Source of the DNA: Bilabrum cf. latius
Lineage: Eukaryota
Assembly: GCA_965178125.1 (NCBI GenBank)
Contig: OZ237771.1
Coordinates: 124,001-188,000 of the forward strand
Length of the DNA: 64,000 nt
Direction of reading: 5' to 3'
Shown here: positions 15,538 through 36,790 of the stretch, piece by piece
How positions within the stretch are numbered: the stretch's first letter is position 1
How the letters are laid out: each line of letters starts with the position of its first letter
Made by a program: the position numbers and the translations under genes
The notes under the pieces: generated by a model
The model's input: the letters and a program-made list of their open reading frames with translations, nothing else
Database searches by the model: none
What the model was told of the DNA's origin: nothing

Positions 15538-16020
15538 CCCCCCCCCCGTGTCGGCTATGCCTCGCACTAATAATTTGTTATCTATCGATAAATTATTATC
15601 TCAATATCACAAATTTCGCTCCGCTTCATTTGCTCTTGACAATTTCAGTAGAGATAAAAAGAAAGAAAATCAATAATAAGAATTATTAAATAGAGGAGAG
15701 GGAGGAGGGAGTGCATGTTTAGAATTAAAATATATTTTAGTATCAAAAAAAAAAAAATTATTAATAAATATATACATAGAGAGAGAGTTTCAAAAAAATT
15801 TCCGTACGAGGTTCTCCCTTTCCCTAAGTAAAAATCAGATAGTAAAAAGTGATAGTAGAGCTTAATAAGTAAAACAAAAAATAGAAAACATGGGGGAGTT
15901 ACAAACAAAAAGTGAAGACATCTACAATTTGGAATATTTCATTCAGGTTACTCACATGATGGTTAAGCGAAATTTGATATAAGAAATATATTAAATTTTG
16001 CGAGTATGTCATGTTTTAAT
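15538..16020 (+). repeat. Left terminal inverted repeat (483 bp)
   Basis: Reverse complement of 36308-36790. The same spurious 87-aa ORF appears at 15645-15908(-) and 36420-36683(+). Confidence 0.97.
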
Positions 16021-16085
16021 GTTTCTAGAATTTTAACTATTCTAAAAACACTTAAAGAATATTATATAATATATACTTATACAGT

Positions 16086-18038
16086 ATGACCTCACAAATT
16101 ACAGATTTTTTCGTCAACTCTAAAATTAAACTAATTTCAGAATCTCTAAATTATTCAGATATAGACCCTAACGATATTACAACAGCTAGACTAAGTATAT
16201 TAATAGTTGATTTCATGCCTCAAATGTATGCAGACGGTAGTAATTTCCTAATGTATGACTCAAAACGGGGGGTTTGGTTTTCAGTTTATGCTAAAGATGC
16301 CAAACTCTATAAAATTATTATGATGTCTTTAAACAATATCATTGAAAAGAAACTAAAACAAATAGAAAAGAGTTTCAAAGAATTATCAACTCAACTAAAA
16401 AACCTAAAATTAGAAGACAAAGAGGAAAAGCCAAAAATTGAATCTCAAATGACAAGACTTTTAAAAAGCAAAAAAAATATAATGTCAACATCAAAAATAT
16501 ACTTATCTAATAGGTTTATTACTGATTTGTGTACAATGATTTTAAACAATTGTTCAAGTGCATAGGAAATTTATCGTAGAAATCAAACCAAAAACAAATT
16601 CAGAATATTCTATAAAAATAAAAAATTAGTAGACATTTCAAATGGTAAAATATACAAGACTAAACCTATTTCGTCTTGCCTATCTAGAATCCCTTATAAA
16701 TTTCTAGGTTTTGATGCACCAACCCCAAACGCTGATAATTTCATTTTACAACTAGCAAACAATAACGCCGAAAGAGCAGAATGCATAAAATCAGTTCTCG
16801 GATATTCGATCACAAATCTTAATGATGCAAAAAAAATGTTTGTATTTTACGGTAAAGAGGGGAATAATGGAAAATCAGTATTAATGAATCTAATGGAGTC
16901 AATCCTAAAAGAAAAATGTAAGCCAATTTCTAAAGAATTACTTATTGAATGTAAATCATCAACAGCAACAGCAAACCCTGAACTATTAACCTTAAGAAAT
17001 GTAACACTTGGCGTGTTGAGTGAGTTAAAAGATAATGAAAAATTAAATGAAACCGTATTTAAAAGTATCACGGGTGGTGATGTTTTAACAGCTCGTCAAC
17101 TTTATAGTAATAAAGTGGAGAGTTTTGATTTAGTAATGAAAATTATTTTACATTCTAATAAACCCGTATATATTGATATGAAAGACAAAGCGAGTGTTAA
17201 TCGCATGTATGTTATATATTTTGATGCGGAATTCGTAGACAATCCAACAGAAGAACATCACTTTAAGAAAGATTCGCTATTTCTTAAAAAGTTTATTAAA
17301 AATCACGGCGATGAATTCTTTACAATGCTTGTAAAATATGCCAGACAATACCTAAACGAAGGAATAATAATAAATAATGCGGTAAAAGAAGACACTGAAA
17401 GATATTTAAATATGATTGACCCAGTTCATCAATTTATAAACTCAACTTATGAAGAATCCGACAATAATATTGAATATTTTAATGATATATGGGGAGATTT
17501 TAAATAGTATTGTACAGAGAAAGGAATGCCATTCACTCATCAAAACCAACAAAAAACTAAATTATTACAATATTTAAGTAAGAATTATAAGAAGATAAAG
17601 CAAGTAAATAAACTACGAAGAGGGGATACAACTGCTTTTAAAGGAATAAGAAATATCAACAATATTGAAGATGAAGAGTTTGGGTTTGATGAGATAGAAG
17701 ACAACGATATAACACTTTGTCAAAATATAGGAAGAATTTATAAATCATATTACTTTGACCCTAAAGGGTTTACATCTATCAAAGAACTAAAAGAAGAGTT
17801 TCACGATATAAGCGATATTAGTAAGTTATTAAAAAATATGAATATTCCAGAAATTAAAAGGTCTATTATGGGGTTTAGATTATCTAAGTTTGAACCAAAA
17901 GAAGAACCAAAAGAAGAACCAAAAGAAGAACCCAAAACCAAACCCAAAACCAAAAACAAACCAAAAATGAAATCCAAAAAAGAAGATAAAGCTCCTCTTT
18001 TAGATGAATTTACAGATTGTAATTGTGAATCATTTTAA
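16086..18038 (+). CDS. D5-like/SF3 primase-helicase, 650 aa (2 TAG)
   Basis: ORFs 16086, 16836 and 17526 are in one frame with TAG at 16563 and 17505, ending TAA. Walker A YGKEGNNGKS, LGVLSE, KSITGGD..TARQLY, ILHSN. Confidence 0.9.
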
Positions 18039-19040
18039 TTTTTTGAATTCCTTCCAATTATCAATTAAATTAGAAAAATCTTTTTCAATTTTCTTTTTAG
18101 GTTCTGAGGTCCAGTCTTTTTTATTTGGATAGTCTTTCCATTCAATTATATATTTATCACCCTTTTCTCCTCTAATTCGTAGAGGATAAAATTCGTCTTT
18201 TTCTCTTTTTATTGTTGTAGGTTTTAATTCGTCCCTTGTATATAAAGTATTTAATTCTCTAATATAATAAAATGGCGGTTTATCACTAAAGAACCTTATA
18301 CCGTCAATATTATAAACTTGTGGACTATATCTGATATCTCCTACTCTGAATTTATCGCCTAGTTTTTTCCCAGTAATTGGGTCAATAGGATACTCTAATT
18401 TAACTCTAACTGATGAATTTACATCTAATAATTTACAACCAGACTTAGGACATTTAACAGGTTTTAATGTAGTAAATTCTTGTAATAGATTCTTAACTTT
18501 TGGTTTTTTATCTCGTTTCCTATTCAGATATTGTATTAATGGTCTAACATTTGAAACCCATTCTTTATTTCGTTTGCCAGTAGATAGTTCTTTTTCAGTC
18601 ATTAACATATTTAAATATTTACCTAAACTTTGGTTAGCTCTTTCAACTACAGCCATCTATTGTTTTCTTCCTACTTTAGCAACATTTAATATAATAGCCT
18701 CAGATTCAACAAATTTTTTAAAATCCCCTTTGAATTCTGAACCACTATCTACAGTAAGTAAGGTAGGACTCTAAAGTATATTTCTTTTCAATATTTTTTT
18801 ATAAGCATCTCTAACAGTTGACGAATTTTTATTCTTGATAGGTTCAGCATCTATTAACCTAGTCCCAATATCAGCAAAAACTAATAAATATTTATTCTTT
18901 GTTGGGTCAGTAGGCAAAAATAATAAATCAGCTTGTTGTCTTTGAAATGGTTGAATAGGGTAATTATAACTTCCGTATTGTTTTTTCAATCTATTCGGTT
19001 CTACTAATTCATTATAGAGTTTAGATGGTTTAAAAGACAT
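18030..19040 (-). CDS. Retroviral-type (rve) DDE integrase with C-terminal chromodomain, about 336 aa (2 TAG)
   Basis: QQADLL, TVDSGSEFKG and GRKQ*MAVVERAN give the D-D-E triad only if TAG at 18771 and 18657 are read through. YIIEWKDYP..WTSEP chromodomain. Ends TGA. Confidence 0.92.
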
Positions 19041-19133
19041 TATATAATACAATACGAAAATTATTTACTCGTTGTTTTTGGAATAGTAAAAAATCTTAAA
19101 ACTACTTAAAGAAATTAGAATAATATAATATAT

Positions 19134-20996
19134 ATGCAGGATAAAATAAAGAAGAATATCAAGCTTTATAAAACTAAAAAGATAATGAATGGTAAGAATG
19201 TCAAAACCACAGCTCATCTAGTAGAAGGTAAAAAAGGATGGACCATAGAAGATATTAAAAAAGTAGGTAAACTGATATCTGAAAAGTATAAAGCAAATAA
19301 GAAAATATTAAATGTAACCCTTCAATTTAATGACATGTCAAAAGCTACAAGGTCAACGATGATATATGATAATTCGTTATATAGTGATTTAGTTACTGAT
19401 GATTGGGATTCTGTTAATGTTCCTACTCCTTACGACGGATACGATAATAACTTAACAGATGATCTAATGCCTATTAATGGATTTCAATATATTAGGTTTG
19501 ATGTGATAGAATATATTCCATAGAAAGGAGGAAACAGTAAAAAAAATGATTGTTTGTATTTCTGTTTACGGGATGCTTTCGGAGGTCGTGAATATTTACC
19601 TAAGTCTTGGAACGCAGGAAATAAGATAAGAAGACAGCTAAATCTACCTCAAAATTGTAAGATTGAAACAAAGCATTTATAGGCTATTTCAAACGCACTT
19701 AAAACTAATATCCATTTAACGGGTGATGTGGTAAATGTTTATACAGCAAATACTAAAACTCATAGAAATATACACTTAGAAATCAAAAATGAACATTATA
19801 CTTTAAAACCAACTCAAAAGTTTAATAAAAAGGTTCAATATAATAAATGTTTAAAAGTAGCACAAAAAAAGAATAAAACTATTTACTGCTACGATGGAAA
19901 AGAAATATCAGAAATTGACAAACTTAATAAATTTAGATATCATATTTGTAATTCTGAAGATGATATTAAAGAATTTTATAAAGAAAAAATAGAACTTTAG
20001 AAGAAAATGCAAAAAGCAGGAAAGAAACATAATATTTTTTATTGTGACCCTGTAGCTTATATGAACTATAACACCTTAACTTTATAGAATTTCAAGTATT
20101 ATTGTCAATCCTTTGATTATCCCGCAAATATTGACCCTTGCGAATTTAAATATATAGAACTTTCAACGAGTGGAGATATTTATTATTGTAAAAAAAGGAA
20201 TATCACACTTAAGAAAGCTTATAAATATGATATTAACAGCTTATATCCTTCATTAATGGCTAGTATATACTCAGTTTTTCCTATTGGTAAGCCAACTTAT
20301 CACATGATTAAAACATTACCTAATAAATTTTGTTCTTTTGGATTATATAAATGTAAGATAGAGCAAGGAAAAGCAGACCTAGAATTATTTAAAATTATTA
20401 GAAAAAATCATTTTTATTGGTATACTCATATTGACATTAACGATTTAACTAAATACGGTTTTAAATTTACACTTATTAAAGATGAAACAAATCATATATC
20501 TTATTCTGATGTTGTAAAGGGTTCTCATGTATTTGAGCCATTCGTTAATGCCCTTTATAAAGCTAAACAAGATAAAAGCGATGAAGCAATATCAGATAAT
20601 TTTAAGAGTATTCTTAATTTACTATGGGGAACTTTAAGCGAAAAGAGACTAAGAAGAGTTACAAGGAAGAACTTAGATAATATGGATATGTTCCCTGAGA
20701 TGGAGAATATAATTGAATTGAACGAGGATAAATTAATACATTTTGACACACAAAAACCATATTTTAATAATTGGGCTAGAATCAAACCATTTTTAAAAGC
20801 ATATTCAAGAAGAGCCATTTTAAAGGTCATCACTAAAAACGAATTATATAAGCATATTTATCACATTAGGGTAGATTCTCTAATTTCAGATATTCCTTTA
20901 GATATTCCCATTAGCAATAAATTAGGAGAGTGGAAAATAGAACATGAGGGAGAAATAGAAATAATTCATACAAATAAAGTTGTGCCCAAATATTGA
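19134..20996 (+). CDS. Protein-primed family B DNA polymerase, 620 aa (4 TAG)
   Basis: One frame with TAG at 19521, 19680, 19998 and 20085. Motif A YDINSLYP, motif B KSILNLLWG, motif C variant HIRVDS, KLGEWKIE. Ends TGA. Confidence 0.88.
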
Positions 20997-21037
20997 TAAT
21001 TCTAAAAACACTTAAAAAAAGAATATATATAAATAGT

Positions 21038-21328
21038 ATGCCTGATAGAAAAGAATATTTCAAAAAATACCGTAAAGAAAATAAAGAAAGATTAAAAGAA
21101 TTACATAATCAAAGTTATACATGTGAGATTTGCGGTAAAGAAGTAAAAAAATACAATAAAGCCAAACATGAGAAATCCATTATCCATCTACACAGTAAAG
21201 CCAAAAAATAGGGATTAACACCAGATGAAAAAACTAATTTAATTAAAGCTTATAAAAAAGTTATAGGTGGATTAACAAAACAAGTAGAAGAACAAACTCA
21301 AAATTTACAATTTGTTGAAGAGTTATAA
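21038..21328 (+). CDS. C2H2 zinc-finger protein, 96 aa (1 TAG)
   Basis: YTCEICG...KAKHEKSIIH. TAG at 21209, ends TAA. Confidence 0.75.
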
Positions 21329-21609: not shown

Positions 21610-22605
21610 ATGAACGCTAAAGATAAGAAACTATGGAAATTAGCCCAATCAATAGCAAATAAGAAATATGACAAGCCATCAGCTTATAAAAGCGGTTATA
21701 TTGTTAAAGTTTATAGGGATTTAGGAGGTGAATTCAAAGGGAAAAAACCAAAAGATGGATTGACTAGATGGTATTTAGAGTAGTGGAAAAATCAAAGGGG
21801 AGAAATTGGATACAAAAAGAAAGGCGATATATACAGACCAACTAAAAGAATAAACAAAAAAACACCTAAAACATTTGATGAACTAACTTTAAAGGAATTA
21901 ACTAACGCTCAACTAGAGAAACTATTAAAAGGTAGAGTTAAACAGTTCAAAGGTGGGAGCGTGTGGGATGTTATTAAAGATATACCAGTTGGAGCATTTC
22001 GCTTTTTAACCAGAAGAAATAAGAAACTAAGCGATTTAACAAATGAAGTAAAAACATACGCTAAAATAGCTCAGCAAACATACGGAAAAGTGCCACAAAG
22101 GGATATTATTGACGGGTATAGATTATTATTCAAAGATGATCGGAGAAAAGTATACATTAAAGGAAATAATATAATTATTGGTGTTCGTGGAACGTCAGAC
22201 GGTAACGATGTATTAGATGATGTTAAAATTGCAAGAGGAACATTAGAAGAAAGCGAGAACTTTAAGAATTTAGTTGATATTTACGAGGCGATAAAATAGG
22301 CTTTTCCAGATGCTAATATTTCTTTTTCTTCTCATTCCTTAGGTGGTGCTATGGTTGCTTATTTAACAAAAAAATACGGCGACAAGATTAAAGGACATTC
22401 TTTTAATCCTGCTTTAAATTTTGAAATGATCAGAGACCCTAAATTTAATATCAAAAATATAAAATAGCATGTAATAGATGGTGACCCAGTAGCTCATAGC
22501 TTAGCCCAGTTTATGAATCCTGAACAAGTGACATTTTATGAATCGCCCCATGAAAAGAATAACTACTTTAATACTCATAAACTCAGCAATTTTACTGAAG
22601 ACTAA
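21610..22605 (+). CDS. Class-3-like lipase (alpha/beta hydrolase) fused to an N-terminal basic viral domain, 331 aa (3 TAG)
   Basis: IIIGVRGT, SHSLGG nucleophile elbow, FNP, GDPV and C-terminal His. N-terminal KPSAYKSGYIVK..GLTRW block. TAG at 21781, 22297 and 22465; ends TAA. Confidence 0.85.
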
Positions 22606-22650: not shown

Positions 22651-23484
22651 TTATTGTATTTGTTGCAGCCTTTGTTTTCGCAGTTTTTCCTTATTCTTTT
22701 CATAATACCGTTTATTTTGCTCTTTTACTTTGTCTTTATTCTTTTCATAATACCGTTTATTTTGCTCTTTTACTTTGTCTTTATTCTTTTTCCGATATTC
22801 TTTATCATATGCTTTTTGTCGTGCTTTTATTCTTTCCTTGTTTTTTTCACGATAGGCTTTTCGCTTTTCTTTATTTTTTGCACGATACATTTTATCATAT
22901 GCCTTTTTTTTGTCAATATTTTTCATGCGGGTTTCTCTATACTTCTCACACACAAAACAACGGCATGAGCCGGAACGGCCACTGCCGCGCTGCCCCGCCC
23001 CCTTCCCTAAGGAAGGAGACGAGGGAATGCCTCGCAAGCTGCTGGTCGCACTGGCGGTTGCAACCTCGCGTTGGTAGACCGGAGCCTGTGTTCGAGTCTC
23101 GAACGCATCGCCACATCAACCCCGAACCCCATTCGGCGTTAGCATTAATTTTTCTTGACAAACCTTAACTGCTTCTTTTCTACTTCTACCAGCTACTAAC
23201 TTATTAACGCATGGATAATTCCTAATATAATGACCCTCAATCTGTCTTAGCTCTTCTTTATCGTTACATGGACATTTTGTCACTAATTCAATGATACAAT
23301 CGCCTAGTTCAACTATTTTATATGATGTCACATATGGACTTTTGCCGTTCTTGAATGTTTTATATGCCTTTATGTGTTGCCCTTTCCTCTTTGCTAACGA
23401 CTGTACGGTAGAACCATAATAATGAAGTTCGGGTTTATTCAATGAATATAATCTATAAATTTTTGCTTTGCTATAATCAGGCAT
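22651..23484 (-). CDS. GIY-YIG endonuclease with Lys/Tyr-rich tail, interrupted by a GC-rich insert of about 220 bp
   Basis: KIYRL...YYGST..LAKRKGQH...EGHYI..CVN. The tail (22651-22941) is in the same frame, but the insert carries an in-frame TGA at 23116. Confidence 0.8.
22942..23163. mobile_element. GC-rich structured insert 1 (boundaries +/-20 nt)
   Basis: GC-rich island in AT-rich viral DNA with several hairpins. Shares a 27/29-nt motif with the insert in the ATPase gene. Confidence 0.7.
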
Positions 23485-23541: not shown

Positions 23542-24210
23542 TTAAAGAATTTTACCATAACCTAATCCACAACCTCTATCAATTATATCATCATCATCGT
23601 TTTTCACTATTTTTGGTTTATTAACTTTAGAACTAAAAAAAGAGTCGTCTATTTTTGGTTTATCTACTTTAGAGATTGGAAGTCTATCAATATTTTTATT
23701 GATTGAACCGTAAACGATATTTCTCACGGCTAAACTATCCAAATTTAGAATATCAAAAGTGTTTTTCTATTTCATGTTTACTGATTTAATATAAACTTTG
23801 TTATTTTGTAAACAATAGCAATAATCAGAAACGATAAAGCTTACATAATACATATCATCAGAATGTGAAGGGAAAAAGTAAACTAAATAATCTCTTAAAT
23901 CTCGCAATAATGAAGGGTGCTAATTAATCATTTCAATAAGTTCACTATCAGAATTTAAAAATAAGCTTAATTTTTCTTTCGTTATAGTTGGCTAAGGTTT
24001 TAATTCTTTATTCTTTGCTAATTTATTTAATAATGTTGATATGTGAATATAAGACAACCTAAATATTGTATATAATTCATTTACTTTTTTAATATATTTT
24101 ATGCCTTCCTTAAAGGTTAATTTATGCTTTTCAATTATGCTTTTTAATTGTTCTATTTCACCTTGAAACTGTTTCATTTTGTTTTGTAAATCTGAGAAAT
24201 CTAAATCCAT
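23542..24210 (-). CDS. Hypothetical viral protein, 222 aa (3 TAG)
   Basis: ORFs 23992-24210 and 23542-23742 join in one frame through TAGs and end TAA. Confidence 0.7.
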
Positions 24211-24776: not shown

Positions 24777-25094
24777 TTAGAACCTAATATTTAGTTTCTT
24801 TTCATAATCTTTTATTGATGCTTCTAAAGTTGGTTTATTCCATAGTATCTACCATGATAAAATAGCAGGTGATAAGAAATCATATTTAGCTCTTTGAAAA
24901 CTGTATTCGTGACGCTTTAACCAATTCTTCTTTTTTGTTTCATCTTGGTGATCGATGAATGTTGAACCATTCTATAAACCGAAATGTACTTTCTTGATTA
25001 CGGGGTCATACTTCTTATATTTTATTTTAAAAGTAGCCATTAATCTTTTATTTTTCCTTGTTGATGGTTTTATACTTAATAGAGTAATGTTCAT
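24777..25094 (-). CDS. Small conserved-type viral protein (HFG...DH...RH...ILW), 105 aa (2 TAG); absent from the ORF track
   Basis: MNITLLSIKPSTRKNKRLMATF...KKVHFGL*NGSTFIDHQDETKKKNWLKRH...LSPAILSW*ILWNKPTLEASIKDY, ending TAA. Confidence 0.75.
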
Positions 25095-26482: not shown

Positions 26483-28027
26483 TTATACTTCAACAACACA
26501 CATCCACCCGACACTATTTTGAACACCTGACATAATATGCCTTTTTACTGAGACCTTTGAAAACTTCCATAATTGGGAAGGATATCCATCAGATGTAATT
26601 GTGTAAGAATTTCTTAATCTATTTGGATTATTTGAACCTGGGAAATATATCAATGATTCAGGTACGGTAAAAGTGTCATCTGTATAAGTTTCTAGCGTTA
26701 TTGTACAAGTCGCATTTTGTCCAATATATGTATTTCCTATAGCTTTTAAGCAAATATTAAAATCATGATCGGACCACTCTTTACTAATTCTTAATGTATA
26801 ATTGGCACTTACTGGTAAGCCTCCGCTATCTCCTTGAGCAATACACATCAAGTTATAATTAAACGGTATATTATCAGATTTTAATATATCAATGGTTGAA
26901 CTGTTTTCACGAAATACATTTTTATCATATATTATGGGTGTAGTTGGTATACTATCAACATAGTTCTTAGTTGCTACATCTTGGGCATTAGTTGGGTCAG
27001 TTACATTGATAATCTTGCTATTATTCGCATCATTACCCTAACTTAAGACTGAGGATAAAGAAGGTGTTACTGTTGGTATACTATCAACATAGTTTTTAGT
27101 TGCTACATCTTGGGCATTAGTTGGGTCATTTACATTACTTATTGTATTAGAACTCATATTTACATCAACTTTAACATCCATACTATTATTATTTGCTGTT
27201 ATTATGTTTGTTTCTGTTGTATTATCAACATGATCGACTTTCAAATTAGTAGAATCTACGGAAAAATTATATCTAATATCTTGATTTGAATAATCATATA
27301 TACTCATTCCGTCATAACCTATTGCTAATCCCTAAACCCCGTTATCTGCTCTATATAATACGCTACCTCTTTCACCGCCTGAGTCCCATCTAGTCGTAAT
27401 ACCTGCAGTAAATGAATTTTTACCTGTATAATGAAAATTTCCACCTGTTGATGACCCTTCAAAAACCAATATACGCCCTTCAACTGGTTTAATAATTCCG
27501 TTATAATTTGCTACTGTTCCCACTTGTAAACTTTCAGCTTCCAATTCATTAGATGTTATCTTTCCTGTAACTGTTAAATTTGAGAATTCATCCATATTTA
27601 ACATTTCTACTCTTGTACCTAATCCGTAATTTTCTCTATAAATTCTAAAAAGACTATCTTCATTATCATTACTCAGAGAATAACCTAAATTGTTATTATT
27701 TGGTTGGAATAATCTAATTTGTCGTTCATCATCTGCTCTAATATATGATGTTGTTGTATGACCTCCAATTGTAACATTTCCCGTCGTTGTTATTGTATCT
27801 GATTCTAAATTACTTAACCCTACTATTTGCTCATTTCTTGCATCATCTCCTGCTTGTAATACTGACTGTAAATCTCCCGTTCCTGTTGCTTGAGCGTCTA
27901 CATATGCTTTAGTTGTTAACTGATTTGTATCTGTTATATTTGTTTCTGTTACTAATACTTTCTCTGTTGACATTGATCGACATTTTAAATCTAATTCATT
28001 AGTTGATAATAAATTTGATATGCTCAT
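26483..28027 (-). CDS. Fibre-like protein, 514 aa (2 TAG)
   Basis: Three ORFs in one frame. Duplicated DPTNAQDVATKNYVD plus QLTTKAYVD trimeric-fibre-type motifs. Ends TAA. Confidence 0.8.
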
Positions 28028-28094: not shown

Positions 28095-29534
28095 TTAACC
28101 GTCAACATCTTCCTCTTCTTGTTCTTGTTCAGCCTATCGTGCTCGTTCTTCTGCTTCTCTTCGCCTTCTTGCCTATTCTACTAAATCTGCTCTTTCCTCT
28201 GGCGTTGGGTTTAAATCTACACTTTCTAGTTCATCCATGCCATCAGTAACACCATCTAGCATCTCTTCTGTTTTCCCCCTAAGAACCTTAAGACGATCCA
28301 TAACCCCTTTAAATGCTTCTCTCTTTTTTGCTCTATCTTTAGTATCTCTAAATTGTCTTAATTTTCCCTCTAGTTCCCTTATCTCTTTCCATTTTGGTCT
28401 ATTTTGCTTAGATAGTTTTAAAACTTTATCCAAATCACTTATAGGTGATTTAGCCACATATTTATTCCATTCTTTCTTTAGTTCTTCTTTATCCATTCCG
28501 TTTATATCATTCCATGTAAGACTCTATTCTTTTCTTTCGTCATCATTTAACAAAAACTTAAGGAAATCGTTCAACTGACCTTTCATCTCTCCTATTTTAT
28601 CTCCAACATTAAAATCATCTTCAATTCTGGGAAGTTTATACATATCGCGGATATCTTCATGTTCAATAAAATCACCAACTAGGAACTCTATCATATTCTA
28701 TTTATTATCAAGAATCTCATCCCAATCGGGGGCGTCAAAACCTCTTTCTTTATCTCGTTTCGTAAACTGTGCCTTTTGAGAAGATGAAAAGTATTCATCA
28801 AGAATCTCATCTTCAGATAAAGATCCGAGCGTTTCTCTTAATTCTTCAACCATGGACCAAATTTCATCCGCTGATGTATTTTCCGCCTGAAGGAAAGTTT
28901 CAATTTTTTTCCCGCTTAAATTTGCTTTAATCGTTTCCTTAATTTTTCTTATTGGCGTTCCTTCTTTTAATTTATATAATATTCTAAACTCTTCTAAATC
29001 AGAAGGTGAAAAGTCATCTACTCTTGATTTGCCTACTGATTGTAAAAGCTATTTAAATTGTTCATTATTCGTTACTTTATTTGAGGCTAATCCGTCTACT
29101 GTTCTTATTAATCTTGTAATTTTATTTTTTTCTTCTTTTTTGAGTGCTGTTTCTCCTATTCTTCCCGTCAATTGATTTAAAAAACCTTTTAGCATTCCTA
29201 TCATTCCTAAACTTGGATTTTCCTTTAAAATAATTTCTCTCATTCTTTCTAAGTTAGCATTTATCTTAGATTCACTTCCTGCGTTGAGACCTTCAACTAA
29301 TTCAGCGACAACTGTTCTCAATGCTCCATCCATACGCTATTCTCTTCTTCTTAGTTCTAAAGGTTGGAAATCAGTTGATAATACAATATCATCGCGACGT
29401 TTCTAATCTCTGAGTGCGTTTAATATAGCAAGTCGTTCGTTTCTTTCCCTTAATGCTAAATTTTCTACTCCTGAATTTACTGCTTGACGCTATTGATTCT
29501 ATTGCCTTAATATATTCCTAAGTTCCGTAGACAT
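28095..29534 (-). CDS. Charged helical/coiled-coil viral protein, 479 aa (9 TAG)
   Basis: Continuous frame from ATG 29534 to TAA 28095, interrupted only by TAG. TCTA motif upstream. Confidence 0.75.
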
Positions 29535-29576: not shown

Positions 29577-30425
29577 ATGGAAATTAATAATAGAACCATT
29601 AAATTATTTAATAATGACCACTCTGCATTATTTCGTGAGCTTATGTTAATTAAAGATGTTGATTTATTACTAAATGGCTCTTTTCCTATTACCTTCTTCG
29701 CCTCAGATATTGACCTATATTCTAAATTACAAATGAGAGATTATAAAACATTGCTTAATGAATTGTTAAGTTTTCTTTTAGATGTTGAACTTGGAACGGA
29801 AATATCAGAATTAAAGATTGGTAATAAGAAAGCAAAAAGTAAAAAAGCTATTATAGAGTTAGTAGTTAATGAAATGAAAAACCCTAAATATATTTATGAG
29901 GATAAAAAGTGGGTTAAATTGGACCTTATAGTATTAATTAATGGATATTATGAAGAAATTACTATTATATATGATTTTGGCGATTCATTAGAAGGTAAAA
30001 CTAAAGATGAAGTTACCAAAGAACTTATTAAAGATGTTCATAAACTAGATAAACAAGGTATGTATTATAAAGCATTGAAACGATTAAGAGAAATATATAA
30101 AAGAACTAATCTATTTGATAAAGTTGAATTAATGGAAAGTTTGCTTAATAATGATATGGTGGGATTTTTATATTTATCTAATGCTAGATTGGAAGCATTA
30201 CAAAAATCAAAAGATAAAGTCAAGAAAAAGAACGATGTTTTAAGCAATCTTAAAGAGGATGTTATGATCAGATTAAAAAATATATTTAAACTCAATCTGA
30301 AGAAATCAGACTTTAAAATTAAGAATATTGATAAAATTCAAAGAGAAATTATGAATAAGTTACATTCTTTAGTTATAAAAACAGCAAAAAATGAGATTGA
30401 ATATTTGCATCGTTTAAGTAAATAA
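29577..30425 (+). CDS. Putative Pol-beta-type nucleotidyltransferase-fold protein, 282 aa
   Basis: LNGS...ASDIDL and KLDLIV resemble the hGS..DxD..D signature. Lies immediately upstream of the ATPase. Confidence 0.6.
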   Translation: MEINNRTIKLFNNDHSALFRELMLIKDVDLLLNGSFPITFFASDIDLYSKLQMRDYKTLLNELLSFLLDVELGTEISELKIGNKKAKSKKAIIELVVNEMKNPKYIYEDKKWVKLDLIVLINGYYEEITIIYDFGDSLEGKTKDEVTKELIKDVHKLDKQGMYYKALKRLREIYKRTNLFDKVELMESLLNNDMVGFLYLSNARLEALQKSKDKVKKKNDVLSNLKEDVMIRLKNIFKLNLKKSDFKIKNIDKIQREIMNKLHSLVIKTAKNEIEYLHRLSK

Positions 30426-30503: not shown

Positions 30504-31897
30504 ATGCTATCTTATGATAATATAAATGACAGTATTCCAATCGCATATAGAAAATATAATTCTAATAATGCTCAATCAAAAAATAAAGTTTTATACATTG
30601 ACCAAAGTTTCCAAAGCAATGAGCTTAAACCAGAAGATATATCAGACGATAAATTAACGGCAATTTTTGGAACTCATGCATTAAGGTCATTAAAAGCTGA
30701 TGCCAGAGTGTACGCGCAACCTAGTCTCGTTAACAATCAGACATGGCAAGACCTGACAAAGCTGTGCCTGTGCGCTACCCTTGACCGGACTGACCGGGGC
30801 TGGGAAGAGCACGTGCACTACTCCGCCGAGGAGGAGGGGGTTGGGAGGGTGGGCAAAAATTACCCAATCTCCGCCCCTCTCCTGAACACAGAGAGGGTAT
30901 GCGCGTCATCGCAAGCAATCCGTTGGCTTGGTCGCACCTTCCCGGTCGCAACCGCCATCGGAACGCAACGAGACGTTCACGCGCTCCCACTCTGGCATCA
31001 ACACCGAACCCCATCCGGCGTTAGGATCAAAAAAAGGAAAAAAGGAATAAATTAGTAGAATTATACAACGGAACAGAAGAAGCTGAAAAATTCAAGGATG
31101 TGGAAATTAAAGATAATTCAAACTTTAGAGTTATTCCTTATGCTTTAGGGCATACAAAAGATGATTCATATAATAGATTTGTTTTCTTTTTGAATGGAGC
31201 TAGTGGATCGGGTAAAAGTTACTTTTCTAAAGAGATTCTAGAAATGGGGCGAATGTTTGGCATTAAAAAAATATATGTTATTACTGATATCAAAGACCCT
31301 AAATTTGGAAAAGTCAAATACTTAGATATTAATACTTTAGTTGGTGAAAATGTCACACATGAAGAAAGTAAAAAGGAATATGAAAAAGCTAAAATTAAGT
31401 TCAAATACAAAAAGAAAATGTATAAAGATAACCCCGAAATGCTAATGAATTTAGAATTAGCACTGCACGATATGAAACCTGAAGCTAATACAACTACTAA
31501 ATTTGAGTTTAAATTAGATTAGGAGCAAAGAAATGCTATATTTTAGGATTCAATAGTATTATTCGATGATTACGAGAGTAATTCAGACATTGAAAAGATT
31601 GAGTTCTTAAGAGATAATCTATTAACTAAAGGAAGGCACACAAAAACATCGCTTATTATTTGTAATCATAAAGGCTCAGACGGTGGACATATGAAACTTA
31701 TTAAGATAGAAACGACGGATTATGTGCTATTTAATAAGTCAAATGACCACGAAAGAGCCTATCTTCTCAGGACTTATCTTGGATTTAACAAAGAATAGAT
31801 TAAAAGGGTAAAACTAGCATTAAAAAAATCTAGATGGATTTCTATAAACCCTAATGAAGGTTTTGCTATTAGTCAGAAAGAGACATTTATGATATAA
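30504..31897 (+). CDS. FtsK/HerA (A32-like) genome-packaging ATPase, interrupted by a GC-rich insert (3 TAG)
   Basis: Walker A NGASGSGKS, Walker B IVLFDD, TKGRH, IICNH, YLGFNKE*IKRVK; ends TAA. The 5' part (from 30504) is in a different frame because of the insert. Confidence 0.88.
30686..31044. mobile_element. GC-rich structured insert 2 (core 30699-31024)
   Basis: GC-rich island that frameshifts the ATPase. 13-bp inverted repeat TGATGCCAGAGTG (30698-30710) / CACTCTGGCATCA (30988-31000). Motifs shared with insert 1. Confidence 0.72.
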
Positions 31898-31919
31898 CTA
31901 TTTTCGAAACTATAATTAT

Positions 31920-32486
31920 ATGAATAGGGAAAAATTGAATAAATTAGTTAAAACATATTTAAGCCCCCAAGAATTAAAAGATTTATGGAACAAGCACCCG
32001 CACACAAAAGGTGACCCGCCTCGTGTTGTTTTGTATGATGATATCATTAAAGCCCCATCAATTGAAGCATTATTTCAAGGTGACAATAAATTAATTATCT
32101 TTTATCCCATGTCTCAACAAGGAAGTACGACAAGTGGACATTATACGGCATTAACTAAAGATGATAAAAAGAATGTTATTTACTTTTATGATTCTTACGG
32201 AGGGCTACCTGATGTAGGACAAAAAAAATACGCTAACTCAAATTTATACCAAGAACAAAATAATACCCTTATTAGACATTTACTAAATAGTGGTTATGAT
32301 GTTGATTATTCACCTTATAAACACCAAGGAGACGGAGATATCGCAACATGTGGAAGGCATAGCTTAAATAGAACTCATTTTAGCCAACTTTCAAACGATG
32401 AATATAATCAATTAATGAATGAAGCTAAAAAAGCAGTTAATGGTCATCATTCACTAGATGAAATAGTAAGTATGACATTCAATTAA
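31920..32486 (+). CDS. Adenain-like maturation cysteine protease, 188 aa
   Basis: SGHYTAL, YFYDSYG, HQ....ATCGRH give the His-Asp-(Gln)-Cys catalytic set. Ends TAA. Confidence 0.92.
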   Translation: MNREKLNKLVKTYLSPQELKDLWNKHPHTKGDPPRVVLYDDIIKAPSIEALFQGDNKLIIFYPMSQQGSTTSGHYTALTKDDKKNVIYFYDSYGGLPDVGQKKYANSNLYQEQNNTLIRHLLNSGYDVDYSPYKHQGDGDIATCGRHSLNRTHFSQLSNDEYNQLMNEAKKAVNGHHSLDEIVSMTFN

Positions 32487-32564
32487 TAAAATATTGTTAT
32501 GTATTAATAAACCTCAAATTTCTTATTTAAGGTATATTAACTTATATTAAAAATTCTTTTTTAT

Positions 32565-34361
32565 TTACATTTTATCTAAAAGTTTCTTAAGCTATGCTTT
32601 GCTCATTGCTTTACCTCCTTTTTTACCTGAACCAACTTCTAGCAATTCACCGCCTCTTTTCTTAGTTGCTTTCTTCTTCTTGTTTCCATAACCGAAGCTA
32701 TTCGCCAGATCGCCAAAAGGAGTGCCATCGGCTACGACAGGAGCAAGTCCTGAGTTTCTTAAGACTCTTGATGCAGTTCTTGCTTGTGGACTCTTGAGCA
32801 TATCACCGAGCCAAGTTAAACCAGACCATACACGGTTACCCATATCACCCCACCAAGAACCACCTACAATATGGTTATTTTGAGCGTTGTTCTTAGAGAA
32901 CATAACAGGAGACCTAGCAAGGACTTCACTTGAAAGTAAAGGTCAATCAGATTTATAAGTTCCATTATCTGACTCATTATATAATACAAGGTCATCGTAA
33001 TAAGCCATTACCTTAAGGGTATAAATTCCCCCCGCGTCTTGTCCTGCGGGGCAGTTCATAGTTGCTTTTACAGTAACAGTGAAGGTATGGTTTGCGTGAG
33101 AAATAAAGGATTGTTGAGATGCAGCGGGAACATCATCAGGTTTAATAATAATGAATGAACCAGCCCCAAATTGACCACTTGCTATCTATTGTTGGGCGAA
33201 TTTAGCATATCTTTCATTATATCCGTTCTTAGTAGACATTTCATAAAGTTGATGCTAACTATAATTATTGAAAATATCGGTTTTCTGTGCTGTGTCAATT
33301 GTGAGCTTTGATATATTTGCGTATTGATCAGATTCACTATAACTTTTACCATTAACAGCCTTATTTCTCTTAGCATAAATGAATAATGCGGTAGGAACGC
33401 TATCTAATACAAATGAACCACTTGAAACCGTTACGGGAACAGGTAGATAAGGATCAGCTCCGACGGTTAACTCAACACTTTTTGAAGCTTGTCTCTTTAA
33501 TTCTGGAGCATTCCATACAATCTATTTAGGAATATCTAAGTTTAGAGATGGATTCCATGTGTGCACTAAAAGATGGAATTCTGCGTCAGTACAAGCAACT
33601 GAGGTAGCATCCTAAACGTTAGCCTTATCAACAACTAGGAACTCGCCAACTTGTCCAACAATGGCATCCATATCAAACTCAGCCTTAAAATTTTTAAGAT
33701 TTCTAAAAGGAACGGGGTTCTCTTGTTGATATTGGAAAGGTTGAGCAAATACAGCCTCGCGATATACAAGCTCAATTGTAAAATCATCAGCCCCATTTTT
33801 TGTTATTTTCTTGATATCCCAGTTATTGCCTAAACCGTTAGATGATACAGTATCTATAGCATTGAATCCCTCTTTAAGGGAATTGTTGGCATAGGTACTA
33901 TCATAACTAGTTGAAAGTTGACCCGCGGGAGCATCAGACACACGCATAAGTTGGGCAAGTGGTTGAGTATTAGCCATAGCTTCGGCAATATCAGCGGGCC
34001 TAGAAGTGAATTCATGACCGTTTAACTCAACTCTAGCATTTGATAAGCGTCTATTTAGTGCTAACTATCTAATACCAATTTTACCGAAAAGATCAGAAAC
34101 ATCAGTTAAATTCTAAGTTCCAGTAAGTCTAAGGGTTAAACCTGCTTCTAACATTGGGGTGGATTCTACGTTTCCAAGTGGAAAGTTATACTGAAATCTT
34201 ACAGTTCCAGCTTCGCCATTTGATGGTTTAGATGCAGCGGGAATTCTTCGTCTTACTGATTCGTTATTGGACATTCTAGCCCCAAGCATTACATCCTCGG
34301 GCTTTTTAAACTTTTCGTTAGAGTTAGCTAATAGAACGGTGTTTTTATAGTAACTTGACAT
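32565..34361 (-). CDS. Virophage major capsid protein (double jelly-roll), about 598 codons (7 TAG, 1 in-frame TGA at 32943-32945)
   Basis: Single frame from ATG 34361 to TAA 32565. IR*LALNRRLSNARVELNG, EAVFAQPF, LDSVPTALFIYA, QLYEMSTKNG, GSFIIIKP. C-terminal GG motif and basic tail. Adjacent to penton and protease. Confidence 0.88.
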
Positions 34362-34403
34362 AATAAACTATATATAGAAAAAAATTTCTTATATATTTCT
34401 TTA

Positions 34404-35291
34404 TTATTCTCTCATAAAATATAATTTAATATCAATTTGAGAGTTAGAATTTAGAGCTATAGAGTGTCCCACATTATTATAATCATACCAAAAGAAATCT
34501 AAATAAAATGAATTTATATTTTTAGATTCTTTGAAGTTATGCCAAATATGGTCTTTATCTCTTGCACTATACTTAATTAAACTTATAGGCTAATTATTCG
34601 CTTGTTGAACGTCAAAATCTACCAAGAAAGTAGCCGTATCTTCACTTCCAGCGATTGCATCTGGTTGATTAAATGGAGGAGGTAAAAGTTCATTTTCAGT
34701 TGGAAGATTTGACTTTATAACTATTCTCGATACAGGACTCATTAGCTCTAAAGTTGCTACATATTGCGTCTCTTCGTCTTTATCAAGCTCAACATAGTAA
34801 GGACTAGATAATACAGATTCATAATTAAAAGTTGGCATATAAGTGAATAAATCGTCATTGAATCCAATTTTCCAAGCAGAACGAAAACCAACTGCAGAGT
34901 TAATAGTAAATTTATTAGTTGTCTCATCAAATGTCATAGTTGGAACATCCCCTATTGAAAGAGTTGTACATAATGTATCAAAAGTATTAGAAATAGCAGA
35001 TGCTACATCGTGATAATCGTAAATATATCCGTCGACGTCATCGTATGCGGAAAAATCCACCGTCTCTGATGTTACTACACCAGATGAAATATTTTGAAAT
35101 GAAATCGTAGGAGTATTTAATTTTGGATCAAATAAAGGTAAAAGAATCTTGTTCATAATTAATCGTTCTACTGAAATAAGCCAACCGCTAGTATCGCTTA
35201 TAACGTCTGACTATCTATTTATATTAACTCTAGCAAGAGATGATATTCCATTCACTCCATGCACCTATCCTGTTAAATATTTATGACTCAT
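34404..35291 (-). CDS. Minor capsid (penton) protein, 295 aa (3 TAG)
   Basis: Frame from ATG 35291 to TAA 34404. WLISVERL, SPVSRIVIKSNLPTENE, LDFFWYD...IKLYF. Directly upstream of the MCP. Confidence 0.82.
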
Positions 35292-35371
35292 AATACAACT
35301 TATATAGAAAAAAATATTAAAATAGTAACCATAAAAAACCAATAAATAAATAGTAAACATAGATAATAATT

Positions 35372-36292
35372 TTACTTTTTTTTTAGCAATAACTAAATAC
35401 TTATTATTTCCGTATTTGGATAATTGAGTTTATCAAAATCACAAGATAACACGAATATATTATCATTCTTTAGTAATAGTGAATTTAGTTGATTTATTCT
35501 TTTATTCTAATACATGTCTTTATTAGTAGGAATAAACAAAATGTAAGACTCTTTTTTTGATAATTCTATATCTAATAGAGATGATAAATCAATAATTGGA
35601 TAATCACTTACAAGTTTTAAATACTCGTTGTTTATTTCTTTACCTTCAATATTTGAAATAGAAAAATTACCTAATAATATATTTTTACAATTTTTTAATT
35701 CTAAGCTTTTACTATTCTATTTAATAACCTCAAGTAGTTTCTTTAGTTGATTGGTTCTAATATTTGTATTATCAATATATAATAAATCATCAGTTAGAGA
35801 ACATGTAAACATACTAAATACGTAGTTTTTTATTTTTATATTTGCTATTAGCACATGTTCATTGTGTATTATTGACTATGGATTAAATAAATCATAATAA
35901 CTATAATTTTCAAATGGATATGATGAGATTATTACTTTATCATATTTTTTATAATTTTTATCAACAGTTTCAGAATCCCAAGAAGTCTTTATATTTGAAG
36001 AATCAATAGATAATATACTATTTCCATCGTTTAACTCATCAAATGAAGGAACTATATGAAATCTCAAATCTTCTTTTTTATTTCTGATATTAAACTCTTT
36101 ATAAAATTCAATAATTGCTAATTTATGATTTAATCCCTCGAGTGATATAATTGCTTTAGGATATTTAAAAATTTCATCTAAAATTATTTCAATATTTTCG
36201 CTTAAACTGAATGATTTTGTTATATTCGTGGAAATATTGACTAATTTAATAGTGTTATCAGATGAAAATTGTTTAGTGAGTATACTCCCCAT
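35372..36292 (-). CDS. Hypothetical viral protein, about 306 aa (4 TAG), possibly a degenerate EEP fold
   Basis: Continuous frame except TAG, ending TAA. AIISLEG and ILLGNFS loosely resemble the EEP motifs DIxxLQE and ILxGDFN. Confidence 0.6.
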
Positions 36293-36307
36293 ATGTAATA
36301 TAACAAG

Positions 36308-36790
36308 ATTAAAACATGACATACTCGCAAAATTTAATATATTTCTTATATCAAATTTCGCTTAACCATCATGTGAGTAACCTGAATGAAATATTCCAAA
36401 TTGTAGATGTCTTCACTTTTTGTTTGTAACTCCCCCATGTTTTCTATTTTTTGTTTTACTTATTAAGCTCTACTATCACTTTTTACTATCTGATTTTTAC
36501 TTAGGGAAAGGGAGAACCTCGTACGGAAATTTTTTTGAAACTCTCTCTCTATGTATATATTTATTAATAATTTTTTTTTTTTTGATACTAAAATATATTT
36601 TAATTCTAAACATGCACTCCCTCCTCCCTCTCCTCTATTTAATAATTCTTATTATTGATTTTCTTTCTTTTTATCTCTACTGAAATTGTCAAGAGCAAAT
36701 GAAGCGGAGCGAAATTTGTGATATTGAGATAATAATTTATCGATAGATAACAAATTATTAGTGCGAGGCATAGCCGACACGGGGGGGGGG
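36308..36790 (-). repeat. Right terminal inverted repeat (483 bp)
   Basis: Reverse complement of 15538-16020, followed by AATCT. Confidence 0.97.

What the first reader, a model, noticed from the sequence alone, without database searches (positions are those of the whole stretch)
15538..36790. An endogenous virophage written in a UAG-recoded genetic code matching its host
Seen: about 45-50 in-frame TAGs across 14 viral genes, including between the catalytic motifs of the integrase, pPolB, lipase and ATPase and throughout MCP and penton. Every viral gene I traced ends in TAA or TGA, the TIRs match, and frames are otherwise intact, so this is not random decay. Contexts favour Gln (GRKQ*MAVVER, YLGFNKE*IKR, IR*LALN). 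Known: mavirus and the Cafeteria EMALEs have this architecture but use the standard code. Inference: a virophage lineage adapted to a UAG=Gln host. This would lock its host range and implies a partner giant virus that also tolerates or uses this code.
Basis: partly seen in the sequence, partly recalled or inferred. Interest (0 to 1): 0.95.

Follow-up and report, generated by a model that had tools for sequence, protein, structure and literature searches.

The report
Integrated virophage that reads TAG as glutamine
A mavirus-like virophage sits integrated in a protist chromosome, and both it and its host read the stop codon TAG as glutamine, so here a changed genetic code has not kept viruses out; this particular copy also carries three defects.

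Summary
The element is 15538-36790: about 28% GC in a 52-65% GC host, with perfect 486-nt TIRs and a 5-bp target-site duplication (AATCT).

It encodes a mavirus-type MCP and penton (PDB 6G43/6G41, E about 1e-39 to 1e-41), an A32-like ATPase, a protein-primed PolB, an rve-chromo integrase, a DUF5906 helicase and a GIY-YIG nuclease.

Curated gene models hold 47 in-frame TAG in 14 of 19 genes, no in-frame TAA and one in-frame TGA. In the closest relative of each gene, 13 of 17 TAG columns are Gln (log-odds +40 bits; next residue -7).

Host genes in the flanks need the same code. One host TAG lies opposite Gln in 113 of 119 homologs. TAA and TGA terminate.

Contigs from two independent studies reproduce the sequence. 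Five metagenome relatives also carry in-frame TAG, while the closest relative has none.

"Frames otherwise intact" is wrong. The MCP has a TGA opposite an invariant Arg, and GC-rich host repeats interrupt the ATPase and GIY-YIG genes; insert-free alleles exist in the reads.

Prior art exists for endogenous viruses matching a host's variant code (Streblomastix strix, TAA/TAG=Gln). My searches found no TAG-only virophage in print.

The parts
15533..15537 (.). left copy of the 5-bp target-site duplication AATCT
15538..16023 (+). left terminal inverted repeat (starts with C10)
   Evidence: (I1, 100% complementary)
16086..18038 (+). primase/helicase-like protein (DUF5906), 2 TAG
   Evidence: Pfam PF19263 E 2.2e-6, above cut-off
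18030..19040 (-). rve integrase with C-terminal chromodomain, 2 TAG
   Evidence: Pfam rve E 1.6e-6 and Chromo E 3.1e-4, both below the curated cut-offs
19134..20996 (+). protein-primed family B DNA polymerase, 4 TAG
   Evidence: 771 relatives; profile A2 hits PDB 1XHX 'DNA polymerase' at E 1.4e-7; DxxSLYP-type motif at residue 363
21038..21328 (+). orf96, 1 TAG, function unknown
21610..22605 (+). DUF5872 plus alpha/beta-hydrolase (lipase-like) protein, 3 TAG
   Evidence: Pfam PF19197 E 8.7e-26; weak Abhydrolase_1
22651..23484 (-). GIY-YIG nuclease gene, split here into orf122 (23116-23484) and orf91 (22651-22926) by the 200-nt insert; 212-aa single frame in the insert-free allele
   Evidence: Pfam GIY-YIG E 3.7e-5
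22948..23147 (+). 200-nt GC-rich insert; organism B lacks it and has TTTAT there
23542..24210 (-). orf222, 3 TAG, unknown
24777..25094 (-). DUF5754 protein, 2 TAG
   Evidence: Pfam PF19058 E 1.1e-12
25152..25829 (-). orf225, no TAG, TCTA at -17
25860..26447 (-). orf195, 2 TAG, TCTA at -18
26483..28027 (-). orf514, fibre-like repeat protein, 2 TAG, TCTA at -18
   Evidence: (D5)
28095..29534 (-). orf479, 9 TAG, TCTA at -19, unknown
29577..30425 (+). orf282, no TAG, unknown
30504..31897 (+). A32/FtsK-type packaging ATPase, 3 TAG, interrupted by the 332-nt repeat; 353-aa frame in the insert-free allele
   Evidence: Pfam Pox_A32 E 0.0027, below cut-off; 41 relatives, best 89%
30698..31029 (+). 332-nt GC-rich high-copy host repeat: no TSD, TG..CA ends, paired termini
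   Evidence: (I5)
31920..32486 (+). putative CE-clan (Ulp1/adenain-like) cysteine protease, no TAG
   Evidence: 64% identical to a gene next to penton and MCP in L001; weak fold matches, most of the listed ones Ulp1/SENP/XopD or poxvirus core protease, E 3e-3 and weaker, on a model with pLDDT 62
32565..34361 (-). major capsid protein, 598 codons, 7 TAG and one in-frame TGA at 32943-32945 (codon 473)
   Evidence: Pfam MCP_V20_C E 3.1e-12; PDB 6G43 E 6.5e-39
34404..35291 (-). penton (minor capsid) protein, 3 TAG, TCTA at -17
   Evidence: PDB 6G41 E 9.4e-41
35372..36322 (-). orf316, 4 TAG, unknown; its start lies in the right TIR
36305..36790 (-). right terminal inverted repeat
36791..36795 (.). 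right copy of the target-site duplication AATCT
42952..44385 (-). host WbsX-like gene whose TAG (codon 92 of the frame) lies opposite a conserved Gln
   Evidence: Pfam PF14307 E 3.8e-27; Q in 113 of 119 homologs
8033..13798 (+). host AAA-domain gene: a 1921-aa frame that is open only if its 7 TAG are sense

Best explanation
This is a mavirus-like virophage genome of 21,253 bp. Its own rve-type integrase inserted it into the nuclear DNA of a GC-rich, apparently intron-poor protist, duplicating 5 bp of target.

Virus and host both use a code in which UAG means glutamine while UAA and UGA terminate (the pattern of NCBI table 15). The virophage carries no tRNA. Its 47 UAG codons would therefore be decoded by the host's translation system, presumably a host tRNA-Gln(CUA) together with a release factor that no longer recognises UAG; that step is inferred.

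TAG makes up about a fifth of the virus's Gln codons, and it mostly stands where relatives have CAA rather than CAG. So the lineage has evolved under this code for a long time and did not acquire its TAGs in one recent burst. Related environmental virophages use TAG in the same way.

Six genes of the structural block carry TCTA in an AT-rich context 17-19 nt before the ATG, the kind of late-promoter motif described for mavirus and CroV. Expression is therefore probably switched on by a co-infecting giant virus (inferred).

This particular copy is probably not fully functional. Its MCP has a premature TGA before the scaffolding C-terminal domain, and host repeats split its ATPase and GIY-YIG genes. 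Alleles without the inserts are present in the sequencing data.
For: Integration and identity:
- GC island, perfect TIRs and the AATCT TSD. No host frame longer than 124 aa spans the empty site.
- MCP matches PDB 6G43/6G45 at E 6.5e-39, against Sputnik 3J26 at 1.4e-5. Penton matches 6G41 at 9.4e-41. The polymerase profile hits 1XHX at 1.4e-7.

The code in the virus:
- 47 TAG, 0 TAA and 1 TGA in frame.
- The closest relative has Q at 13 of 17 TAG columns: MCP A,Q,Q,Q,Q,E,Q; penton Q,Q,Q; ATPase K,Q,Q; PolB Q,Q,Q,K.
- ATPase column 258 is Q in 29 of 37 homologs.
- Log-odds are Q +40.1, next D -6.8.
- C-termini at TAA or TGA coincide with those of relatives for MCP, ATPase, PolB and penton.

The code in the host:
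- The longest flank frames grow from 624 to 1922 aa and from 574 to 1779 aa only with TAG as sense.
- 14 of 16 long frames end in TGA and 2 in TAA.
- WbsX TAG92 lies opposite Q in 113 of 119 homologs.

Real sequence, not error: contigs from 4 runs in 2 studies match long stretches with 0 differences.

Lineage-wide: 11 in-gene TAG in 5 metagenome loci. These lie opposite the window's Q 4 times and its TAG twice, and only TAG-sense lengthens those loci's frames.

No tRNA in the window; a relaxed scan of the element gave no CUA anticodon.

Promoter: TCTA at -17 to -19 in 6 of 18 genes. The TCTA/CroV late-promoter link comes from passages of Hackl 2021.
Against: - No RNA or peptide evidence: none of the runs holding the sequence is on record as RNA, and no proteomics is available.
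- No host tRNA-Gln(CUA) or eRF1 could be examined, because no genome is held.
- The host's TAG meaning rests on two aligned columns, of which only one is conserved.
- 4 of 17 virus TAG columns have A, E or K in the closest relative, and several columns are variable.
- This copy has a nonsense codon and two gene-splitting inserts, so it is partly decayed. The 'adaptation' is therefore inferred for the lineage, not shown for a working virus.
- The rve, chromo and A32 Pfam hits are below their curated cut-offs, and the protease assignment is weak.
- The TCTA enrichment in a broad window is modest (P about 0.02 against random windows). The tight positional clustering is my reading of that result.
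Confidence: 0.88

Rival explanations
1. A decayed endogenous virus: the TAGs are ordinary nonsense mutations in a pseudogenised element.
For: The copy does carry real damage: an in-frame TGA in the MCP and two inserts that split genes.
Against: 47 TAG against 0 TAA and 1 TGA in frame, although TAA is the commonest stop triplet off frame. No frameshifts in any gene compared with relatives. TIRs are 100% identical. TAG columns are Gln in relatives. Relatives and host genes show the same pattern.
Confidence: 0.03
2. Assembly or sequencing artefact, or copy-specific C-to-T hypermutation or editing of CAG to TAG.
For: CAG is rare in the element (19 against 154 CAA). The single TGA looks like CGA to TGA at a CpG.
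Against: Contigs of 4 runs from 2 studies show 0 differences over 17000-22720, 27099-30697 and 31030-36337. No CAA has become TAA. Relatives carry mostly CAA (16), not CAG (4), opposite the TAGs. CpG observed/expected is 0.81, the same as the left host flank. Independent metagenome contigs also carry in-frame TAG.
Confidence: 0.02
3. The virus recodes on its own, as code-15 phages do, in a host that uses the standard code.
For: TAG-to-Gln recoding by viruses of standard-code hosts is known in phages (titles and abstracts listed).
Against: No tRNA gene in the element. Host frames in both flanks need TAG as sense, and one host TAG lies at a conserved Gln.
Confidence: 0.02
4. The code is not strictly 'UAG only'. 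Either UAA is also Gln in the host (the common UAR=Gln code), or UAG is ambiguous, sense inside genes and stop at some gene ends.
For: TAA is rare in GC-rich host DNA, so its meaning in the host is poorly sampled in 43 kb. Frames were delimited by TAA/TGA by construction.
Against: In a virus with 72% A+T and 154 CAA there is not one in-frame TAA. TAA ends coincide with relatives' C-termini for MCP, ATPase and penton. Reading TAA as sense does not lengthen the longest host frames. No gene compared with relatives ends at a TAG.
Confidence: 0.05

Closest known systems
Mavirus and the endogenous mavirus-like elements (EMALEs) of Cafeteria burkhardae
   Same: A low-GC element in a high-GC host, long TIRs and a short TSD. 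Gene set of virophage MCP, penton, ATPase, protease candidate, rve integrase and protein-primed PolB. TCTA motif before structural genes. Colonisation by host mobile elements (Hackl 2021, passages read).
   Different: TAG is a sense codon (47 times). The MCP is recognisably homologous but distant (E about 1e-39, not a close relative). The invaders here are small GC-rich repeats without a TSD, whereas EMALEs carry Ngaro retrotransposons.
Endogenous Maverick/PLV-type viruses of Streblomastix strix (Bellas et al. 2023, PNAS)
   Same: Endogenous DNA viruses whose genes use the host's non-standard stop-codon code (passage read).
   Different: There both TAA and TAG encode Gln and the MCPs belong to a 'Metamonada' Maverick-like group. 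Here only TAG is reassigned, TAA is the main terminator, and the capsid genes are of virophage (mavirus) type. The supplements of that paper were not available, so I cannot say whether this host was in its survey.
Nuclear code of Iotanema spirale (UAG=Gln, UAA and UGA stop; Panek et al. 2017)
   Same: The same codon table (abstract read).
   Different: An AT-context anaerobic fornicate known from a transcriptome. Here the host is a GC-rich organism whose nearest named homologs for one gene are choanoflagellates at 39-47% identity. That lead is weak and the lineage is unresolved.
Code-15 bacteriophages (TAG=Gln, e.g. crAss-like phages)
   Same: Viral genes with in-frame TAG read as Gln (abstracts listed).
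   Different: Those phages differ from their hosts' code and often bring their own suppressor tRNA. Here virus and host agree, and the virus has no tRNA.

Membership tests
Virophage (mavirus-like; Maveriviricetes) | Double jelly-roll major capsid protein of virophage type | tested here: met
   Pfam MCP_V20_C E 3.1e-12, 46.7 bits against a cut-off of 27. PDB 6G43/6G45 E 6.5e-39 over residues 19-470; Sputnik 3J26 E 1.4e-5.
Virophage (mavirus-like; Maveriviricetes) | Penton (minor capsid) protein | tested here: met
   PDB 6G41/6G42 'Minor capsid protein' E 9.4e-41 over residues 20-292. Born 2018 names 6G41-6G45 as mavirus capsid proteins.
Virophage (mavirus-like; Maveriviricetes) | FtsK/HerA-A32-type packaging ATPase | tested here: inconclusive
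   Pfam Pox_A32 E 0.0027, 17.6 bits, below the cut-off of 22.8. A P-loop (GASGSGKS) is visible. 41 relatives, one of which carries PF04665. The gene is interrupted in this copy.
Virophage (mavirus-like; Maveriviricetes) | Adenain/Ulp1-like cysteine protease | tested here: inconclusive
   No Pfam or PDB sequence hit. The single-sequence model has pLDDT 62. Most of the listed Foldseek matches are CE-clan proteases, but at E 3e-3 and weaker with TM 0.2-0.3.
Virophage (mavirus-like; Maveriviricetes) | Replication depends on a co-infecting giant virus | not testable with these tools
   Only indirect: TCTA at -17 to -19 before 6 of 18 genes, a motif tied to the CroV late promoter in Hackl 2021.
Integrating mavirus/Polinton-type element | TIRs and a short target-site duplication | tested here: met
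   486-nt perfect TIRs and a 5-bp AATCT duplication. The paper gives 5-6 bp for mavirus and 3-5 bp for most EMALEs.
Integrating mavirus/Polinton-type element | rve-family integrase and protein-primed PolB | tested here: met
   rve E 1.6e-6 (28.8 bits, below the cut-off of 32.6) with a chromodomain at E 3.1e-4. The polymerase profile hits PDB 1XHX at E 1.4e-7; that 1XHX is phi29 polymerase is my recollection.
UAG=Gln, UAA/UGA=stop code (NCBI table 15 pattern) | In-frame TAG in conserved genes, aligned to Gln | tested here: met
   17 virus columns, Q +40.1 bits. Host column 92 is Q in 113 of 119 homologs.
UAG=Gln, UAA/UGA=stop code (NCBI table 15 pattern) | TAA and TGA still terminate | tested here: met
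   0 in-frame TAA. Terminal TAA/TGA coincide with relatives' C-termini. The one in-frame TGA lies opposite Arg and is read as a mutation. For the host, only 16 frame ends were seen.
UAG=Gln, UAA/UGA=stop code (NCBI table 15 pattern) | A tRNA with anticodon CUA charged with Gln; altered eRF1 | not testable with these tools
   No tRNA in the 64-kb window and no genome held.

The most novel reading that the evidence does not exclude
A complete three-partner system (protist, giant virus and virophage) operates under a UAG=Gln code. Virophages entered it from standard-code ancestors, and the accumulated TAG codons then act as a one-way ratchet on host range. The closest relative (74-89% protein identity) has no TAG, while a more distant environmental clade does. 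Entry may therefore have happened more than once. The host may also be an undescribed UAG=Gln lineage, possibly holozoan.
Probability: 0.35. Interest if true: 0.85.

Novelty: new variant of a known kind. Interest (0 to 1): 0.68.

Why it matters
Changed genetic codes have long been discussed as a possible barrier to viruses. This locus shows a virophage lineage living under a changed code, which implies a giant virus able to replicate in the same cells.

- **A natural comparison set.** There is a TAG-free close relative, a TAG-using integrated copy and a TAG-using environmental clade. Together they allow a test of how a virus crosses a code boundary and whether the crossing is reversible.
- **An annotation problem.** Public gene calls for the related environmental virophages appear to be cut at TAG. 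P0002 and P0006 end where L005 and L007 have TAG. Such viruses are therefore under-recognised by standard-code pipelines.
- **A second case of UAG-only reassignment.** UAG reassigned while UAA stays a terminator is rare in nuclear genomes.

Tried and rejected
- **Whole genome.** Not held, so there was no genome-wide codon analysis, tRNA search or copy count.
- **Viral contigs.** IMG/VR scans with the MCP alone and with the MCP alignment found no relative.
- **RNA genes.** Rfam found nothing in the element at E up to 0.1, or in the whole window at gathering thresholds. ARAGORN found no tRNA; a relaxed run gave 9 low-grade candidates, none with anticodon CUA.
- **RNA runs.** No RNA holder was listed among the sequencing runs, so expression and splicing could not be examined.
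- **Intron reading of the ATPase insert.** GT at 30708 and AG at 31024 restore the frame, but so do 8 of the 20 nearby GT/AG pairs. This has no evidential weight. The second insert lies antisense to its gene.
- **The two GC-rich inserts as tRNA-like or group I intron elements.** No support.
- **Host lineage.** A TAG-free host frame gave only scores of 0.81, which is in the chance range. Named homologs of one host gene are choanoflagellates at 39-47% identity, too weak to place the host.
- **One or two origins of TAG use.** The ML tree needs 2 changes, but only 1 is forced by well-supported branches, and 13% of bootstrap trees need only 1. Unresolved.
- **Remnants of other virus genes in the flanks.** None by tblastn.
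- **AAAATTGA.** This motif, recalled as a mimivirus early-promoter motif, occurs 5 times in the element and once just upstream of the ATPase. Not pursued.
- **Literature.** 'virophage' + 'UAG' gave 3 papers, none relevant by title. 'virophage' + 'genetic code' + 'stop codon' gave 23 papers, of which only Bellas 2023 was relevant. Code-term combinations with 'virophage' surfaced nothing relevant among the 20 papers listed of 263. 'choanoflagellate' + 'genetic code' + 'UAG' gave 10 papers, none reporting a variant nuclear code by title or abstract.

Full report
**What is there**

Between about 16 and 37 kb the window drops from 51-65% to 27-36% G+C. The island is bounded by inverted repeats 15537-16023 and 36305-36791, 487 nt long and 100% complementary. 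Reading the junctions shows a 5-bp direct duplication, AATCT, at 15533-15537 and 36791-36795.

**Gene content**

With TAG read as sense the island holds 19 genes.
- The MCP matches Pfam MCP_V20_C (E 3.1e-12) and PDB 6G43/6G45 at E 6.5e-39. The Sputnik capsid protein 3J26 scores only 1.4e-5.
- The neighbouring gene matches the 'minor capsid protein' 6G41/6G42 at E 9.4e-41. Born et al. 2018 (passages read) state that 6G41-6G45 are the mavirus MCP and penton.
- The 620-aa protein has 771 relatives. A profile of 30 of them hits PDB 1XHX 'DNA polymerase' at 1.4e-7; I recall this as phi29 protein-primed polymerase.
- Pfam also gives DUF5906 (helicase-like), DUF5872 plus a weak alpha/beta-hydrolase hit, DUF5754 and GIY-YIG above their cut-offs. 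It gives rve, Chromo and Pox_A32 below theirs.
- The putative protease has no sequence hit. A low-confidence model (pLDDT 62) gives weak fold matches, most of the listed ones to Ulp1/SENP/XopD or poxvirus core proteases (E 3e-3 and weaker). That is consistent with a virophage protease but does not prove it.

**The TAG observation**

The 21 ORFs listed under TAG=Q contain 51 in-frame TAG. Curated models, which do not count the ATPase overlap twice, contain 47 TAG in 14 of 19 genes.

There is no in-frame TAA, although TAA is about three times as common as TAG off frame. The longest frame in the element is 314 aa under the standard code, 661 aa with TAG as sense, 501 aa with TAA as sense and 436 aa with TGA as sense. 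Genuine gene ends are TAA (16) or TGA (2). They coincide with the C-termini of relatives for MCP, ATPase, polymerase and penton.

**What TAG means**

I collected relatives of four genes and read the columns opposite TAG. The closest relative of each gene gives:
- MCP (P0001, 74% identity): A, Q, Q, Q, Q, E, Q
- penton (L001): Q, Q, Q
- ATPase (P0007, 89%): K, Q, Q
- polymerase (P0168, 65%): Q, Q, Q, K

That is Q in 13 of 17 columns. ATPase column 258 is Q in 29 of 37 homologs. A log-odds score over all 17 columns gives Gln +40.1 bits and the next residue, Asp, -6.8. Several columns are variable (for example MCP 83 is mostly T, and polymerase 183 mostly P in distant relatives), which is expected for codons that drift at unconstrained sites.

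**The host uses the same code**

In both flanks, very long frames appear only when TAG is sense. The longest frame grows from 624 to 1922 aa on the left and from 574 to 1779 aa on the right. TAA as sense changes nothing, and TGA as sense adds little to the maximum. These frames carry eukaryotic domains: AAA, EGF/teneurin-type EGF and WbsX.

Of 16 long host frames, 14 end in TGA and 2 in TAA. In the four longest, TAG makes up 27 of 307 Gln-type codons. In the WbsX-like gene, TAG at position 92 lies opposite Q in 113 of 119 homologs (L in 6). The second TAG lies in a variable column. So the host's TAG=Gln rests on one conserved column plus the open-frame evidence.

**Not an artefact, and not one copy's accident**

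Five runs from two studies hold 97-98% of the sampled words of 29500-37500. Contigs of four of them match 17000-22720, 27099-30697 and 31030-36337 (or to 36950) with no differing letter and no gap.

Five of seven related metagenome loci (57-61% MCP identity) carry in-frame stops within MCP, penton and protease. Twelve of 13 are TAG. The one TAA, and one of the TAGs, lie upstream of the penton start. The remaining 11 TAG lie opposite the window's Q four times and its own TAG twice. Only TAG-as-sense lengthens those loci's frames, and their genes end in TAA or TGA. Opposite the window's TAGs these loci carry CAA 16 times, CAG 4 times and TAG twice. That argues against a recent CAG-to-TAG burst.

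**Relation among relatives**

The closest MCP, ATPase and polymerase (P0001, P0007, P0168) were called as full-length proteins and so have no TAG. In an ML tree of 12 MCP rows, the window pairs with P0001 (support 80/61) and the eight other TAG users form a clade (100/99). The tree needs two changes of the trait, but well-supported branches force only one. Whether TAG use arose once or twice is open. For the tree I dropped L002 and L003, which duplicate P0003 and P0004.

**This copy is damaged**

- *MCP.* The MCP frame contains TGA at codon 473 (32943-32945), opposite Arg in 9 of 9 relatives, and continues in frame into orf112, which is the MCP C-terminal domain. Born 2018 reports that the mavirus C-terminal domain (res. 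[quoted passage not shown] The stop is therefore probably harmful. It is present in both studies' contigs.
- *ATPase.* A 332-nt GC-rich segment (30698-31029) splits the ATPase. Its depth is 1963-4334 against 34-56 for the neighbouring bins, so it is a high-copy genomic repeat. Contigs also join 30697 directly to 31030 in all four runs. That joint gives a 353-aa frame in exact register with P0007.
- *GIY-YIG nuclease.* A 200-nt insert (22948-23147) splits the GIY-YIG gene. Organism B's contig has TTTAT in its place at ordinary depth, giving a 212-aa frame. In L003 the two parts lie in one frame.

The two inserts share only their 3'-terminal 32-35 nt. The larger one has no target duplication and TG..CA ends, and it folds with z = -4.6. 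A GT..AG pair restores the ATPase frame, but 8 of 20 such pairs do, so I draw nothing from it.

**How it probably works**

- *Shown:* integration with a TSD; the capsid, replication and integration gene set; TAG decoded as Gln by comparison with relatives; the same requirement in host genes.
- *Inferred:* decoding by a host tRNA-Gln(CUA), since the element has no tRNA. Also inferred is activation by a giant virus. Six genes of the structural block have TCTA at -17 to -19 in an AT-rich context, and Hackl 2021 links that motif to the CroV late promoter. Another shared upstream motif precedes the helicase and orf96.
- *Consequence:* under the standard code the MCP would stop at codon 83, so the virus could not be expressed in a standard-code cell. 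The reverse move, from a standard-code host into this one, needs only tolerance of read-through at TAG terminators.

**Comparison with what is known**

The architecture is that of mavirus and the Cafeteria EMALEs. Bellas 2023 reports that endogenous viruses of Streblomastix strix 'use the same translation table' as their TAA/TAG=Gln host, so code-matching endogenous viruses are known. A nuclear code with UAG=Gln and UAA kept as terminator is known from Iotanema spirale (abstract).

My searches found no report of a virophage with in-frame UAG. Supplements were closed, so host lists in Bellas 2023 could not be checked. I therefore rate this a new variant of a known kind.

**Host lineage**

Unresolved. 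For one host gene, the nearest named homologs are Choanoeca flexa (47%) and Stephanoeca diplocostata (39%). The long uninterrupted frames suggest few introns. No further test succeeded.

Noticed in passing
window 30698-31029: A 332-nt GC-rich repeat (about 60% GC) sits inside the ATPase gene. Its read depth is 50-80 times that of the element. It has no target-site duplication, has TG..CA ends and 34-nt imperfect terminal inverted repeats, and its RNA fold has z = -4.6. Insert-free junctions exist in all four runs. I could not assign it to a transposon class.
   Followed up: partly
window 22948-23147: A second GC-rich insert shares only its last 32-35 nt (including CCGAACCCCATYCGGCGTTAG) with the first. 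It splits the GIY-YIG nuclease gene, is absent from organism B's copy (TTTAT in its place), and has raised depth elsewhere in that genome.
   Followed up: partly
window 24296-24788: Between orf222 and orf105 there is non-coding DNA with 9 or more tandem copies of a 23-nt unit (24422-24697), flanked by 11-nt repeats (TTTCCGAGAAC-like). Short-read contigs break here (24473 to 24742).
   Followed up: no
window 25860-28027: orf195 and orf514 begin with nearly the same 15 residues (MSISNLLSTN[D/E]LDLK). orf514 also has an internal 129-nt duplication (26943-27007 / 27072-27136) and a weak T7 tail-fibre hit. They may be alternative fibre or receptor-binding proteins.
   Followed up: no
window 16029-16059 and 20989-21019; also 19040-19134: A shared upstream motif (ATTCTAAAAACACTTAAA) precedes the helicase and orf96, with related sequence in the divergent integrase/polymerase spacer. 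It may be a second promoter class for the replication genes, distinct from the TCTA class.
   Followed up: no
proteins P0002, P0005, P0006 against loci L004-L007: Public protein predictions for the related environmental virophages stop or start where the DNA of near-identical or related loci has TAG (for example, they end at ...KLSKA before TAG). Standard-code gene callers appear to have cut these genes.
   Followed up: partly
window 4350-7703 (-), 8033-13798 (+), 54362-59698 (+): The host frames are rich in tandem protein repeats: five copies of an 80-90-aa unit, eight copies of GAKGSGPGPQWQGAAGGS, and a recurrent GVTS motif.
   Followed up: no
window 36796-38400: The host flank just right of the element has intermediate GC (39-49%) and frames dense in TAG (7 in 247 codons). 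It shows no similarity to the element's proteins and its nature is unknown.
   Followed up: partly
window 42952-44385 (-): The nearest named eukaryotic homologs of the host's WbsX-like gene are choanoflagellates (Choanoeca flexa 47%, Stephanoeca diplocostata 39%). Together with the teneurin-type EGF proteins in the flanks, this is a weak hint that the host could be holozoan.
   Followed up: partly
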